DNA from: an uncultured Clostridia bacterium
GTDB lineage: Bacteria > Bacillota > Clostridia > Christensenellales > Borkfalkiaceae
DNA: 57,501 bases
Assembly (NCBI GenBank): GCA_937915565.1
Contig: CALDMH010000108.1
Span: forward strand, 1 to 57,501
Reading direction: 5' to 3'
Under the pieces are notes generated by a model, which had not been told where the DNA came from, did no database searches, and saw nothing but the letters and a program-made list of their open reading frames with translations. The translations under genes were made by a program, and so were the position numbers. Of this stretch, positions 7,505 to 39,256 are shown in pieces (position 1 is the stretch's first letter; each line of letters opens with the position of its first letter).

Positions 7505-7520
7505 CGAATGAAATCCCTAG
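7505..7520 (-). repeat. solo copy of the terminal inverted repeat of the 37402-37696 element
   Basis: The reverse complement CTAGGGATTTCATTCG matches 37401-37416 (CTAGGGATTTCATTTG) at 15 of 16 positions. Confidence 0.5.
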
Positions 7521-36800: not shown

Positions 36801-37385
36801 GCCGCCGCAGACGTTACGGCGAAGATAGCGGCAATAAATATCGCCGAAGTAAACGACGAAAATTACGCCGCGGCAAAGGCTACCGTAGTTTCCGCAAGAC
36901 AGGATTACGAAGACCTTTCCGACGCCGGTAAAGCGATGGTTACCAACCTCGACGCGCTCAAAGCCGCCGAAGCGAAGGTTAAAGCTTACGAGGACGTTAA
37001 ATCTGCCGCCGACGAAGTTATCGCAAAAATCGCGGCTCTTGAAAAAATAACCGTCACCGACGATAATTACGAAACCGTGAAAGCCGACGTCGTCGCAGCC
37101 AAAGCCGCTTACGAAGCTCTTTCGGAAGCCTCCAAGGCAAGGGTTGATAACTATGAAATTATCGCCTCGGCGGAAAGCAAAATCAATGCTTACGAGGACG
37201 CAAAAGCGGAGGAATCCAATAAACCCACCTCCGAAAAGCCGAACGAATCGCAGAACGACTCCACCGATAGCGGAAGCTCGGGCGGCGGACTTGGTTGCGG
37301 CTCGGCCGTAGGCGCAAGCGGATTAGGCCTTATGGTTCTTCTTGCCGCAGGCGCGGTTGCGATTTTCAAAAAGAAAGAGAATTAA
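33861..37385 (+). CDS. large secreted cell-surface protein (1174 aa) with repeated beta-sandwich-type modules, helical repeats and Cys-containing C-terminal anchor
   Basis: It has a signal peptide ending AYAEE. Four ~200-220-aa modules share a W..W(I/F)(I/T)LK(D/Q) core. A PEPEEPEPQPEEPEELEPE linker is present. Three ~60-aa Ala/Lys/Glu helical repeats carry (E/D)NY..(A/V)KA. The tail reads GGGLGCGSAVGASGLGLMVLLAAGAVAIFKKKEN. Confidence 0.85.
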   Translation: MRKKKLWIVLLCIVAATALCFASLTAYAEEPAEGAETEETLNLALDQTKWNTTTFEAKADGLYAKGTNVSATTKDKIPASATVTTAISGTLAEKDTTWCYAWIVLKQSDPNATVTCNGKNATLSSGNGLIFSWGASHGSESVNEVIDGQSVKMTDTKFVSGFDSWSQYAVNSEITITMTDGPFGTTLDLVFKGGVTNETKTYSYTCENDFSGEGYYGFGYLGGGTVDETHNYVITKATVEEIAVDNDLSHSAANWTTSTGSIVGGENGITATANGNALLKHKLPANSTVTAKITGTAAGTWGNVWFTLKDTRETPDASSSNATAGSYILYRLGGDFNVGQGTIAEVKDGTLLPLNHSIEGASNADSWYVRKQVTEFTFTTEDTETGVKVTVHVKGENCEYEEVIESDNEVLKGEWTLGIGCFVDLAGGNLVIDNVTVKNNDKSEPEKPEPEEPEPQPEEPEELEPEIANLAVSADNFNGGLGNHSGVFGENGITISQTTFSASLVKDVKAGSKIVLDLEGKGETTGWGEAWIILKDVSYPQVIDARQDEKSSFRSLTRGMNYVAFRFGNSYLAGINEVKDGQFTETIITEWAQSDFTAFFKQRVRVVITTEDSDSGVKFNIEFQNLTTGHTLTKEYVSDNVKLKGDYAVNVGTYVGLNAGESIVIRKFGVTETVEKTDRSGANMATDLKYMRNGFNYKAFRYYDGNGLALEQVTKAGFTMYHKVASAQSVTLKYNNTLTSASYGNTYLLLKANDRYVEVPNPNDREINEYNAKSEADPAAAKGDNWILVMFGADGLQRYVCIDGIIEKTNLGDGADNLDVWYWYKQAPSIMLTATDIAETEEDDAHIEVNFTLMGSSGKLTAKSFNVYEEALMGAKYLQVSYFLSTGGNMESDFDFVCLEKLSYMGLDDVVIPEIDVEALNASIASYKAITAENYEAAKATYEAAAAKRAEMNVLQVDKFNAAALAELNKKLEAYLTDKEAAADVTAKIAAINIAEVNDENYAAAKATVVSARQDYEDLSDAGKAMVTNLDALKAAEAKVKAYEDVKSAADEVIAKIAALEKITVTDDNYETVKADVVAAKAAYEALSEASKARVDNYEIIASAESKINAYEDAKAEESNKPTSEKPNESQNDSTDSGSSGGGLGCGSAVGASGLGLMVLLAAGAVAIFKKKEN

Positions 37386-37401
37386 CGGGCGAAGGAAACC
37401 C

Positions 37402-37696
37402 TAGGGATTTCATTTGTCATCACTAACTATTTTTGCGGCGATAAACCGATTTATGCGGCGTTAAACGCCGCTCGTAGTACAGCAAGTACAACTTCGGGCG
37501 TTTGCCTTGCCTAAACGAGCCGCATTGCGGTCGGTTTCTCATCCGCAAAAATGCTTCGCACCGAAAAGAGCGCATTTTTTGATGATTTTTTGCGAACGTG
37601 AGGGTTGCTGTACCGGGCGTACTGCGCCCGAACGGTCGCGGGAAATGGCGAAAAAGACGCCTTTTCGGTAATTAGTGATGGCGAATGGAATCCCTA
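37402..37696. mobile_element. ~295-bp self-complementary element bounded by 28-bp imperfect inverted repeats (MITE-like; alternatively a structured RNA)
   Basis: Positions 37402-37429 pair with 37669-37696: 28 positions, of which 3 are G:U-type on the plus strand and 1 is a mismatch. Nested helices pair 37429-37438 with 37543-37552, 37443-37449 with 37531-37537, and 37453-37459 with 37519-37525. TA dinucleotides sit at both ends of the GGGATT... termini. There is no ORF with coding character. Confidence 0.5.
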
Positions 37697-37716
37697 ACTT
37701 AAATAAAAAATAAGGG

Positions 37717-37756
37717 GGTTGCCGCAAATAAACGGAATAGTTTATTTGCGGCAACC
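37717..37756 (+). terminator. 17-bp perfect hairpin ending 12 nt before the ATG of the SGNH gene
   Basis: Stem GGTTGCCGCAAATAAAC/GTTTATTTGCGGCAACC, loop GGAATA, and only TTT downstream. Confidence 0.55.
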
Positions 37757-37768
37757 TTTCATATCGTT

Positions 37769-39256
37769 ATGAAAAGATTTACATTTTCTGAAAACACGTC
37801 GAAAAGCGAGGCGATTATAAGCTTCGCTCTGCAAATAAATTCGCTTGCGGAAAATCGCGAAAAGGACGACGATTTTCTCGAAGAAAACGAGATTTTTATG
37901 CTTACCGTCGGCGAAAAAGGCAAATTTTCGGCGGAGAACTTTTATCAGAACAAACTCACGATAAGGGCTGTCGGCGAGGAATTATCTCTTCACGGTTACG
38001 CCCCCGATTTTAACAGAACGGGCAACGCCGTGGTTCTTCCGGGCGGGAAAAAGTTAAAAACGAGCGAAAAATACTCGTTTAAAGTCGTTTTAACTAAGCG
38101 CAGAGTTTATATTTACCTTAACGGCGCGCTCGTCGAATCTTACGGAAACGCAAGGGAAACCGTAGACGGTTACGCGTTTTTCGTTCGCAACGGCGAGAAT
38201 ATCGATATAAGCGACGTCGGTTTTACTTCGCGCGACGAAGAGGAGTATCCCACCTCCGAAAAGCTTACGTATTGCGTCGAAAAAGGTCTTTTCGGCGGTT
38301 ATTTGTCTTATGATAAAACCCGCGAAGGTCTTACTTTCAATCGGCTTGACGTGAAAAGTTGTTTCGAGTGTACCACGCGGAATTTTTACGCGTACGATTC
38401 GGGGCTTACGCTCGACGCCGAAACCGACGCGAGCGGGATTAAGCTCGATTTTAAGGTTGTGGATATTCCCGTCGGCAACTGGAATATGCAGTTCGGATTT
38501 GCCGCGGACGGCAGAAGAATCACGCAGCCTATAAAACTCGTAAACAGGGGAGAATACGCTTCCGTAACGATGAACAATCCTTTTAAGGATGGCAAAAGAC
38601 ATCGTTTAACGGTGTTTTTCCCCACGTCCTGCGGCCTTGCCTTAACGCGCGCCGAGTTTTTGAACGCAACCTTTGCCGAAAGAGTGAAAAAGGACGTCCG
38701 CGCTATTTTTATCGGCGACAGCATTACCGAGGGCAGCGAGTGTTTCGATGCTTCGAGGGCTTATCCCAACGCGCTCGCTTTGCATTACGGGCTTGACGCG
38801 CTCAACCAGTCGCTCGGCGGAATGTCTTTCGGCGATTATTGCGCTTCGGGGAATTATCCCGAGCCTTTCGACGTCGCCTTTATAGCCCTCGGAACGAACA
38901 GTTTTTGCGGCGGAACGGGCGATAAGGCGAAAACGCTGAAAACCGTGGCGGAGCAAGCCGAAAAACTTGTGAAAAGGATTAAGGAGAAATTTCCGGATTG
39001 TCGGATATACGGGCTTTTGCCTATTTGGCGTTCGGACGAGGACGGCGTTAATTTTTCGCTTAAAGACACGTCGCGCGCGTTGCGTTCGGTATATTCCCGT
39101 TTAAACGTGAGAATAATAAATTGTCACGATTTCGTTCCCAAGGACTACGGATATTTTTCCGACCCGATTTTTGCGATACACCCAACCTCCGAGGGACACG
39201 ATTTTTACGCCGAGAATCTCATTGCGGCAATAGACAAAAAATACAAAAAAATATAA
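37769..39256 (+). CDS. two-domain protein: N-terminal beta-sandwich-like region + C-terminal SGNH/GDSL hydrolase (carbohydrate esterase-like)
   Basis: SGNH blocks are IFIGDSITEG (block I), LGTNSF (block III) and HPTSEGH (block V) in the C-terminal ~200 aa. No signal peptide and no clear SD sequence, so the start is uncertain. Confidence 0.75.
   Translation: MKRFTFSENTSKSEAIISFALQINSLAENREKDDDFLEENEIFMLTVGEKGKFSAENFYQNKLTIRAVGEELSLHGYAPDFNRTGNAVVLPGGKKLKTSEKYSFKVVLTKRRVYIYLNGALVESYGNARETVDGYAFFVRNGENIDISDVGFTSRDEEEYPTSEKLTYCVEKGLFGGYLSYDKTREGLTFNRLDVKSCFECTTRNFYAYDSGLTLDAETDASGIKLDFKVVDIPVGNWNMQFGFAADGRRITQPIKLVNRGEYASVTMNNPFKDGKRHRLTVFFPTSCGLALTRAEFLNATFAERVKKDVRAIFIGDSITEGSECFDASRAYPNALALHYGLDALNQSLGGMSFGDYCASGNYPEPFDVAFIALGTNSFCGGTGDKAKTLKTVAEQAEKLVKRIKEKFPDCRIYGLLPIWRSDEDGVNFSLKDTSRALRSVYSRLNVRIINCHDFVPKDYGYFSDPIFAIHPTSEGHDFYAENLIAAIDKKYKKI

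What the first reader, a model, noticed from the sequence alone, without database searches (positions are those of the whole stretch)
37402..37696. A ~295-bp self-complementary element with 28-bp imperfect terminal inverted repeats, inserted between the surface-protein gene and the SGNH/ABC genes
**Outer helix.** 37402-37429 (TAGGGATTTCATTTGTCATCACTAACTA) is the inverted complement of 37669-37696 (TAATTAGTGATGGCGAATGGAATCCCTA). There are 24 Watson-Crick positions, three T/G positions and one C/A position.

**Nested helices.** The complementarity continues inward:
- 37429-37438 pairs with 37543-37552;
- 37443-37449 pairs with 37531-37537;
- 37453-37459 pairs with 37519-37525.

A ~115-nt branch lies at 37553-37668. 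If the repeats are taken to start at GGGATT..., both ends are flanked by TA.

**Other observations.** The only ORF here (71 aa, minus strand) is low-complexity in character. A related fragment elsewhere in the window (7505-7520) shows the terminus is repeated in this genome.

**Two readings.**
1. A non-autonomous MITE-type mobile element. A TA target duplication would be compatible with an IS630/mariner-like origin, but that is inference only.
2. A highly structured RNA sitting in the leader of the SGNH-ABC genes.

The 3:1 split of G:U-compatible mismatches is too small a sample to decide the strand or an RNA role.
Basis: seen in the sequence. Interest (0 to 1): 0.62.

Follow-up and report, generated by a model that had tools for sequence, protein, structure and literature searches.

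The report
Small mobile repeat (MITE) in gut Clostridia
The 295-bp self-complementary stretch is one copy of a previously undescribed family of small non-coding mobile repeats (a MITE that duplicates a TA on insertion), present in tens of copies in uncultured human-gut Clostridia; it is an ordinary kind of element, and it is not a regulatory leader of the neighbouring genes.

Summary
Window 37402-37696 has 28-nt imperfect terminal inverted repeats and nested helices, and folds far better than shuffles (z -9.3).

It is a non-autonomous MITE, not a locus-specific RNA.
- **Copies.** At least 12 copies or fragments plus about 10 solo termini lie in the window's own 1.85-Mb draft genome. Related human-gut Clostridia/Christensenellaceae MAGs hold 24 to more than 60 matches each.
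- **TA flanks.** 206 of 223 distinct termini are preceded by TA.
- **Empty sites.** A clean empty site elsewhere shows that TA is duplicated on insertion. An orthologous locus with about 90% identical flanks lacks the element between the same two genes.
- **Placement.** Copies are intergenic, in A+T-rich DNA, in either orientation.
- **Subfamilies.** Four subfamilies differ in their outer inverted-repeat sequence. They keep a Y-shaped fold (terminal stem plus two long hairpins) through compensatory changes: 30 of 81 pairs, against 15.5 in shuffles.
- **Rfam.** No family matches.

No transposase with matching ends was found in about 50 genomes, 110 metagenome contigs or IMG/VR. The mobilising enzyme is therefore only inferred, as IS630/Tc1-mariner-like from the TA duplication.

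Here the element sits between the stop codon of the surface-protein gene and a conserved hairpin. It probably rides in that transcript.

Verdict: a new member of a known kind; modest interest.

The parts
37402..37403 (.). TA, left copy of the duplicated target dinucleotide
   Evidence: TA precedes 206 of 223 distinct termini. The empty site in L085 has one TA where SUG310 has TA on each side of the element.
37404..37429 (+). Left terminal inverted repeat, GGGATTTCATTTGTCATCACTAACTA (core of 23 nt, 37404-37426)
   Evidence: The same terminus is present on 141 termini in GTDB genome loci.
37429..37552 (+). Left long hairpin (ATTTTTGCGG...CCGCAAAAAT). Its tip is GTAC(37477-37480)-AGCAA-GTAC(37486-37489).
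   Evidence: Fold. Helices 3 and 4 keep pairing through double changes. The tip loop is the most variable stretch within subfamily A.
37560..37669 (+). Right long hairpin (ACCGAAAAG...CTTTTCGGT). Its tip is GTAC(37610-37613)-CGGGC-GTAC(37619-37622). It contains the near-invariant block CCGAAAAGAGCG.ATTTTTTGATGATTTT.
   Evidence: Fold. Helices 7-9 covary. Block conservation across all four subfamilies.
37669..37694 (-). Right terminal inverted repeat (read on the - strand: GGGATTCCATTCGCCATCACTAATTA)
37695..37696 (.). TA, right copy of the duplicated target dinucleotide
37388..37401 (+). GGCGAAGGAAACCC, a terminus-like relic just outside the left end. It resembles the element's own right end, GGCGAATGGAATCC.
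   Evidence: Direct repeat D3, 79%. GGAAACCC+TA is absent from the empty allele L276, so the window's extra DNA is 303 nt rather than 293. Abutting copies (..GGAATCCC TA GGGATT..) exist in other genomes.
37717..37756 (.). 17-bp perfect hairpin between the element and the SGNH start codon. It belongs to the host locus, not to the element.
   Evidence: (I2). It is conserved in the element-free ortholog L276.
7505..7520 (+). CGAATGAAATCCCTAG, a short terminus-like fragment (possible decayed solo end)
   Evidence: It is below the 23-nt pattern threshold.

Best explanation
Window 37404-37694 is one copy of a 291-bp non-autonomous DNA transposon (MITE).

**Shown.**
- It inserts at TA and duplicates it.
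- It encodes no protein.
- It is repeated tens of times per genome in a group of uncultured human-gut Clostridia.
- It is absent from this very site in a close relative.
- Its terminal stem and two internal long hairpins are maintained by compensatory substitutions across four subfamilies.

**Inferred.**
- It is cut and pasted in trans by a DDE transposase of the IS630/Tc1-mariner type. This rests on the TA duplication and the 23-28-bp inverted repeats, by analogy with RUP and IS630-Spn1. That enzyme is not encoded in the assemblies examined.
- The structure is kept because only copies that keep both matching ends and the hairpins go on to be copied.
- The element has spread between species recently. 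Copies are 93-97% identical, while flanking genes are 72-91% identical.
- At this locus the copy landed between the stop codon of the 1174-aa surface-protein gene and a pre-existing hairpin, next to a relic of an older end. It is probably transcribed as part of that 3' or intercistronic region. There its very stable RNA fold could alter processing or stability. It has no dedicated role for the SGNH-ABC genes.
For: **Repetition.**
- 31 matches in the window's own genome, many at contig ends.
- Matches in 22 of 61 relatives.
- 95 GTDB genome stretches, named as uncultured Clostridia or Christensenellaceae gut MAGs.
- 110 metagenome contigs.
- 24 to more than 60 matches per genome in nine genomes.

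**TA duplication.**
- L085 reads ..ctgaatatttat TA cgcgcaaatcg.. where SUG310 has the left flank + TA + left end, and the right end + TA + the right flank.
- A second, weaker case is L147 against G000 C30.
- TA is present at 206 of 223 termini, and the flanks are 80-85% A+T.

**This site.** L276 has the same genes, flanks 89-91% identical, an 80-bp spacer and no element.

**Non-coding and position-independent.** All copies are intergenic, and orientations are balanced: 10 same/same, 9 opposite/opposite, 13 mixed.

**Structure.**
- 96.8% of cells are paired.
- 30 of 81 pairs show double changes, against 15.5 +/- 2.2 in shuffles (0 of 500) and 2-8 when the partners are slid.

**Derivatives typical of MITE families**:
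- 46-bp forms made of the two terminal repeats only.
- Deletion forms of 204-248 bp.
- Nested and abutting copies.

**Other.**
- Rfam gives no match.
- Known bacterial MITEs share TA termini, a target duplication and long stem-loop transcripts (PMC2229807).
Against: **No autonomous partner was found.**
- No DDE_3 match in the window's own genome.
- Only 1 of 40 genus genomes and 2 of 8 further MITE-rich genomes carry an IS630-type gene. Its ends show no likeness to this terminal repeat.
- No inverted pair of termini lies 0.6-4 kb apart in four whole genomes, or in the fetched loci apart from pairs that enclose ordinary genes.
- No match in IMG/VR.
- No large repeats in the window's own genome.

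**Other points.**
- Conserved internal hairpins, and internal blocks more invariant than the terminal repeats, are not needed by a classical IS630-type MITE.
- The junction at the window's own site is not exact relative to L276: there are 10 extra nt.
- Transcription could not be tested.
Confidence: 0.85

Rival explanations
1. A structured cis-regulatory RNA (leader, riboswitch or attenuator) that controls the downstream SGNH hydrolase and ABC permease genes.
For: - The fold is very stable.
- The copy lies upstream of the SGNH-ABC genes and on the same strand.
- The + strand folds better than the - strand.
Against: - The orthologous locus L276 keeps the genes and the hairpin but lacks the element.
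- The same sequence lies beside dozens of unrelated genes in both orientations.
- No Rfam family matches.
Confidence: 0.02
2. A MITE that the hosts have put to use. The conserved, covarying hairpins and invariant internal blocks would be kept by host-level selection. Possible roles are RNase III or processing sites, mRNA stabilisers or insulators between genes, or a binding site for a nucleoid protein. This does not exclude the main explanation.
For: - Compensatory changes occur in the internal helices, not only in the terminal repeats.
- Internal blocks are invariant across subfamilies whose terminal repeats differ.
- The + orientation is more stable in 36 of 41 copies, by 9.3 kcal/mol on average.
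- Exact solo termini persist at orthologous loci in many samples.
- Precedent: Correia/NEMIS elements are RNase III substrates and carry an IHF site (PMC2229807).
Against: - Orientation relative to the neighbouring genes is random.
- G:U against A:C support is 19 against 15 columns. The excess in cells comes from three inherited columns.
- The strand asymmetry is absent in subfamily C.
- No promoter-like site lies in or beside the copy.
- Selection on the ability to transpose explains the same pattern.
Confidence: 0.15
3. A hairpin-dependent element that moves as single-stranded DNA (like the palindrome-associated elements of IS200/IS605) or by another structure-specific enzyme, not by a DDE transposase.
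For: - The long hairpins are conserved by covariation.
- No DDE partner was found.
- Other small repeat families of the same genomes share the hairpin-tip motif GTAC-N5-GTAC and nest in these tips.
Against: - The element has symmetric 23-28-bp terminal inverted repeats and a symmetric 2-bp duplication. IS200/IS605-type elements have neither; that is established knowledge of the family.
- Y1 transposase genes were not searched for.
Confidence: 0.05

Closest known systems
RUP (repeat unit of pneumococcus), a MITE thought to be mobilised by IS630-Spn1
   Same: - Non-coding and intergenic.
- Multi-copy, with terminal inverted repeats.
- Inserts at TA, and copies are highly similar to one another (PMC2229807).
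   Different: - RUP is 107 bp, with 9-bp contiguous terminal repeats that resemble a resident IS630 member.
- This element is 291 bp and branched: a terminal stem plus two hairpins of about 110-125 nt.
- No resident IS has like ends.
Correia / NEMIS elements of Neisseria
   Same: - Terminal repeats of about 24-26 bp, TA termini and a TA duplication.
- Size variants that arise by internal insertion or deletion.
- Stable stem-loop transcripts.
- For Correia too, the review reports no IS with matching ends (PMC2229807).
   Different: - Correia elements are 107-155 bp, are unrelated in sequence, and occur in Proteobacteria.
- Promoter, IHF and RNase III roles are shown for Correia and untested here.
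- The subfamily D terminus GGATTAACA... recalls the Correia repeat only from my memory. I did not test this.
ERIC/IRU and other enterobacterial small palindromic repeats
   Same: Intergenic, imperfect palindromes, TA at the termini, transcribed with neighbouring genes (PMC2229807).
   Different: They are shorter (about 127 bp), form a single hairpin and have very short terminal repeats.
IS630 / Tc1-mariner superfamily transposons
   Same: A TA target with TA duplication, and terminal inverted repeats of this length. This is established knowledge of the family.
   Different: No transposase gene lies inside the element, and none with these ends was found. The IS630-like genes present in G063/G070 and G067 have unrelated flanks.

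Membership tests
Bacterial MITE (non-autonomous DNA transposon bounded by terminal inverted repeats) | Terminal inverted repeats | tested here: met
   28 nt at 86% in this copy. A 23-nt core is conserved on more than 200 termini.
Bacterial MITE (non-autonomous DNA transposon bounded by terminal inverted repeats) | Target-site duplication, shown by comparing a filled site with an empty one | tested here: met
   TA duplication at the L085 / L076+L125 site. At the window's own site the element is absent from L276, but the junction differs by 10 extra nt.
Bacterial MITE (non-autonomous DNA transposon bounded by terminal inverted repeats) | Many dispersed copies at non-orthologous sites | tested here: met
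   Distinct flanks.
Bacterial MITE (non-autonomous DNA transposon bounded by terminal inverted repeats) | Small, with no transposase gene | tested here: met
   The element is 291 bp. It holds only ORFs of 50-71 aa, whose frames are not kept across copies that differ by single-base indels.
Bacterial MITE (non-autonomous DNA transposon bounded by terminal inverted repeats) | A related autonomous IS with the same ends | tested here: not met
   None was found in the window's own genome, four whole genomes, about 200 loci or IMG/VR. Many accepted bacterial MITEs also lack a known partner (PMC2229807), so this does not exclude membership.
IS630-derived MITE | TA target and duplication | tested here: met
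IS630-derived MITE | Terminal repeats like those of an IS630-family member that carries a DDE_3 transposase | tested here: not met
   DDE_3 was found in 0 of 1 (own genome), 1 of 40 (genus) and 2 of 8 (further genomes). The ends of those IS copies share no terminal-repeat-like 23-mer, allowing up to 7 mismatches.
Known structured RNA family (Rfam riboswitch, leader or sRNA) | A covariance-model match | tested here: not met
   cmscan at E <= 1 over 37000-38100 found nothing within 37402-37681. The only hits are weak ones centred on the host hairpin 37717-37756; the best, rli56 (37682-37783), overlaps the last 15 nt of the right terminal repeat.
IS200/IS605-type palindrome-associated element | No terminal inverted repeats, no target duplication, asymmetric subterminal hairpins | tested here: not met
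   Symmetric terminal repeats and a TA duplication are present.

The most novel reading that the evidence does not exclude
The conserved unit may be the covarying two-hairpin core rather than the terminal repeats.
- The core has GTAC-N5-GTAC tips and invariant internal blocks.
- It is carried by at least four subfamilies with different terminal repeats, and in diverged form by other small repeat families of the same genomes.
- No cognate transposase was found in about 50 genomes.

This would point to one of two things:
- a structure-specific way of mobilisation that does not depend on a classical IS630-type enzyme;
- a host-selected RNA or DNA module that spreads between gut Clostridia species on interchangeable ends.
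Probability: 0.12. Interest if true: 0.65.

Novelty: new member of a known kind. Interest (0 to 1): 0.3.

Why it matters
- **Annotation.** The result explains a conspicuous structure as a mobile repeat. Nobody should annotate it as a riboswitch or leader of the SGNH-ABC genes.
- **Assembly.** It documents an undescribed, abundant MITE family in uncultured human-gut Clostridia; one two-term full-text search for MITEs in Christensenellaceae found no paper. The family fragments their metagenome assemblies, because many contigs end inside copies.
- **Strain typing.** The copies give ready markers for presence or absence between strains.
- **Gene flow.** The family appears to have moved between species recently.
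- **Evolution of structure.** The family is large and diverse enough to study why internal hairpins of a MITE are kept by compensatory evolution.
- **Open question.** The enzyme that moves TA-duplicating MITEs with no resident partner is unknown. The same question is open for Correia elements.

Tried and rejected
- **Rfam scan:** no family within 37402-37681; the weak rli56 hit on the host hairpin reaches only the last 15 nt of the right terminal repeat.
- **Empty site for the window's copy in 40 genus genomes:** the locus is not conserved at DNA level.
- **Exact look-up of the SGNH protein:** not on record. It was solved through a 90% homologue.
- **Search for the parent IS:**
  - DDE_3 in the window's own genome, the genus and 8 further genomes.
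  - Terminal-repeat pattern in IMG/VR, with 0 hits.
  - Metagenome contigs.
  - Whole-genome maps of termini.
  - Self-BLAST for large repeats.
  - ORFs next to 13 solo termini, all ordinary genes by eye and not scanned against Pfam.
  - Inverted pairs 3.8 and 5.3 kb apart, which enclose ordinary genes.
- **Strand-specific RNA selection:** G:U against A:C columns are 19 against 15, which is not decisive. The fold asymmetry is real, but it depends on the subfamily.
- **Kissing-loop complementarity between the two tip loops:** inspected by eye and inconsistent.
- **A 4-bp CTAG-type target:** rejected. Position -3 is not C-biased, and the 4-mers before the terminus vary.
- **Literature:** no paper on MITEs in Christensenellaceae.

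Full report
**1.

The two arms 37402-37429 and 37669-37696 are 28 nt long and 86% complementary. Read directly, this is 24 Watson-Crick, three T/G and one C/A position.

All belong to the minimum-free-energy fold.

That fold is a terminal stem carrying two long hairpins, 37429-37552 and 37560-37669.
- The + strand folds at -141.9 kcal/mol against -91.3 +/- 5.4 for dinucleotide shuffles (z -9.3).
- The - strand folds at -120.5 kcal/mol (z -7.2).

The 23-nt terminus occurs twice in the window; none is expected by chance. The "related fragment" at 7505-7520 is a 16-nt terminus-like piece. It is real but minimal.

**2. It is a repeat family, not a single-copy feature**

The 295 bp gives 31 matches in the window's own 1.85-Mb, 188-contig draft genome.
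- One is a 97% identical full copy, at C183:19927-20222.
- Many contigs begin or end inside a copy, the signature of an assembly-breaking repeat.

Twenty-two of 61 relatives have matches, nearly all within the same genus. An exact-pattern scan of GTDB genomes found 95 stretches. All are in uncultured human-gut Clostridia, Clostridiales or Christensenellaceae MAGs such as UMGS1072, HGM11419, SUG310, SUG2499 and the Hadza MAGs. A metagenome scan found 110 contigs. Nine further genomes hold 24 to more than 60 matches each, apart from two with 2 and 6.

**3. Ends and target**

Termini start at GGGATT. Of 223 distinct outer flanks, 206 end in TA. The 12 nt outside are 80-85% A+T, in a genome that is 54% A+T. 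Position -3 shows no C bias, so the target is not CTAG-type.

A clean empty site shows the duplication.
- UMGS1072 (L085) reads ..ctgaatatttat-TA-cgcgcaaatcg..
- SUG310 has the same left flank + TA + left end (L076), and right end + TA + the same right flank (L125).
- The flanks are 91-96% identical.

A second, more diverged case (L147 against own-genome C30) also fits a single TA at the empty site. There the element sits between a promoter-like TTGACA/TATAAT pair and a gene start.

**4. The window's own site**

A 90% identical homologue of the downstream SGNH protein lies on a Logan contig, L276. That contig carries the same four genes in the same order. Its flanking DNA is 89-91% identical to the window.

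In L276 the spacer between the surface-protein stop codon and the SGNH start is 80 bp. It reads TAA-CCGACGCA-ACTTAAATAAAAAATAAGGGGG-hairpin-ATG. The window has 303 extra nucleotides at that point: GGAAACCC + TA + the 291-bp element + TA.

The extra GGAAACCC, together with the preceding GGCGAA, resembles the element's own right end, GGCGAATGGAATCC (D3). I read it as the relic of an older end, beside which the present copy inserted. Abutting copies that share a TA occur elsewhere.

The 17-bp hairpin 37717-37756 is ancestral to the locus and is not part of the element.

Pfam confirms a GDSL/SGNH hydrolase and two ABC permeases downstream. The upstream 1174-aa protein has no Pfam match.

**5. Not a leader or riboswitch**

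- The element-free ortholog (section 4) argues against a role specific to this locus.
- 38 non-redundant copies are all intergenic.
- Their orientations relative to the neighbouring genes are balanced: 10 co-directional with both, 9 opposite to both, 13 mixed.
- Rfam gives no match within 37402-37681; the weak rli56 hit on the host hairpin reaches only the last 15 nt of the right terminal repeat.

**6. Family structure**

Four subfamilies can be aligned (41 sequences, alignment A1).
- A is the window's type.
- B differs inside the hairpins.
- C has the terminus TAGGCTTAGCATTCGCCATCACTAA.
- D has the terminus TAGGATTAACATACCCTATCAATAG, is about 316 bp long, and holds an internal third terminus-like copy.

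The consensus fold keeps the Y shape.
- 96.8% of cells are paired.
- 30 of 81 pairs show changes on both sides, against 15.5 +/- 2.2 in shuffles (0 of 500) and 2-8 in the slid controls.
- The double changes occur in the terminal stem and in both internal hairpins.

Within subfamily A (20 copies, median identity 94.6%) variation is concentrated in three places:
- the two hairpin-tip loops, GTAC-N5-GTAC;
- two small loops;
- a few terminal-repeat positions.

The tip stems themselves change in a compensated way, GTAC/GTAC to GTAT/ATAC or ATAC/GTAT. Several internal blocks are more invariant than the terminal repeats. Examples are CCGAAAAGAGCG.ATTTTTTGATGATTTT and CGTTTGCCTTG.

**7. RNA or DNA?**

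G:U-compatible columns number 19 and A:C columns 15. The excess in cells (120 against 37) comes from three inherited columns. The + orientation is more stable in 36 of 41 copies, by 9.3 kcal/mol on average, but not in subfamily C. Together with the random orientation, this is only a weak hint of RNA-level selection.

**8. Derivatives**

- 46-bp forms made of the two terminal repeats only occur at 6 or more loci.
- Deletion forms are 204-248 bp long.
- There are composites of 560-660 bp, and an 838-bp copy (L128).
- In L128 two other small repeats of about 278 bp have nested in the two hairpin tips.
- One of these families (TIR TGCCAGCCCGGAATAAAACG) has 10 or more copies in the window's own genome.
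- The other is a distant homologue of this element, 66% over 117 nt, and it shares the invariant blocks.

**9. The mobilising enzyme was not found**

- No DDE_3 gene in the window's own genome.
- One of 40 genus genomes, and 2 of 8 other MITE-rich genomes, carry one and the same GC-rich IS630-like gene. Its surroundings hold no terminal-repeat-like 23-mer, allowing up to 7 mismatches.
- Whole-genome maps of termini in four genomes (45, 32, 31 and 7 termini) show no inverted pair 0.6-4 kb apart.
- Pairs 3.8 and 5.3 kb apart enclose ordinary genes.
- IMG/VR has no match.
- The window's own genome has no large repeats.
- ORFs beside 13 solo termini look ordinary by eye. I did not scan them against Pfam.

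The IS630/Tc1-mariner assignment therefore rests only on the TA duplication and the geometry of the terminal repeats. RUP/IS630-Spn1 and Correia elements are the precedents (PMC2229807).

**10. Recent spread**

Copies in different species are 93-97% identical. The genes flanking them are 72-88% identical between the same genomes. The close relative L276 lacks this insertion. This fits recent movement between species, or strong selection on every copy. I favour the former.

**11. Verdict**

This is a new family of a well-known kind of element. Its branched, covarying structure and its missing partner are the only features that go beyond the ordinary.

Transcription and presence or absence within populations therefore remain untested.

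Noticed in passing
L128:2073-2349; own genome C98:2170-2446, C125:2696-2972, C44:1043-1319, C28:14321-14576, C24:18283-18538: A second MITE-like family of about 277 bp, with terminal repeat TGCCAGCCCGGAATAAAACG and TA flanks in L128. It has 10 or more copies or fragments in the window's own genome. In L128 it is nested in the right hairpin tip of the element studied.
   Followed up: partly
L128:1651-1929; own genome C44:5240-5475; ends of contigs C31, C65 and C75: A third repeat of about 279 bp (ends TGCCGAGCAAGAATCGAATCCC...). It is nested in the left hairpin of several copies. It is a distant homologue of the studied element (66% over 117 nt) and shares the blocks CGTTTGCCTTG and CGGCGTTAAAC.
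   Followed up: partly
L120:7382-7427; also L172, L187, L190, L204, L240; G001:C33:15382-15427: 46-bp mini-elements made of the two terminal repeats only, TA-flanked, at several different loci. They equal the 291-bp form minus its interior. That interior is itself bounded by TA/TAA direct repeats, which fits either internal deletion or excision of an inner unit.
   Followed up: partly
e.g. L065:6318, L113:6233, and 12 or more metagenome contigs (L163, L173, L194, L199 ...): Solo termini with an exact 23-nt match sit at the same (orthologous) locus in many samples and species. Some lie directly upstream of promoter-like TTGAC.-17-TATTAT pairs. Whether they are relics or used sites is open.
   Followed up: no
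window 37481-37485 and 37614-37618, and the same columns of alignment A1: The 4-6-nt loops at the two hairpin tips (GTAC-N5-GTAC) are by far the most variable positions among copies that are otherwise about 95% identical. Both tips draw on the same pool of loop sequences, read as reverse complements.
   Followed up: partly
window 37717-37756: A perfect 17-bp hairpin lies 12 nt before the annotated ATG of the SGNH gene and is conserved in the ortholog L276. The T-run is on the minus-strand side. The SGNH start has no obvious ribosome-binding site, so the true start, or read-through from the upstream gene, deserves a look.
   Followed up: no
L095:2006-5801: Two inverted solo termini 3.8 kb apart enclose three ordinary membrane-protein genes. 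I judged these by eye to be a cation-efflux-like gene, a CBS-domain/CNNM-like gene and a 247-aa membrane protein. It is a composite-like arrangement without a transposase.
   Followed up: partly
L159 (G063:C36), L270, L271-L275 (G067): One and the same GC-rich IS630-like transposase (DDE_3), nearly identical in protein sequence, occurs in different MAGs. In G067 it is present in several fragmentary copies. It is unrelated to the MITE termini.
   Followed up: partly
own genome C120:7307-7385, compared with L120: Where UMGS1072 has a 46-bp mini-element, the window's genome has an unrelated 77-nt segment that contains GGTTCGATTCTC, a tRNA T-arm-like string. I did not examine it.
   Followed up: no
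alignment A1, subfamily D (L035, L037, L040, L055), columns about 118-135: Subfamily D carries an internal third copy of its own terminus (..GGGTATGTTATTCC..) after the left hairpin. This suggests that the two-hairpin element arose by fusion or nesting of two single-hairpin units.
   Followed up: no
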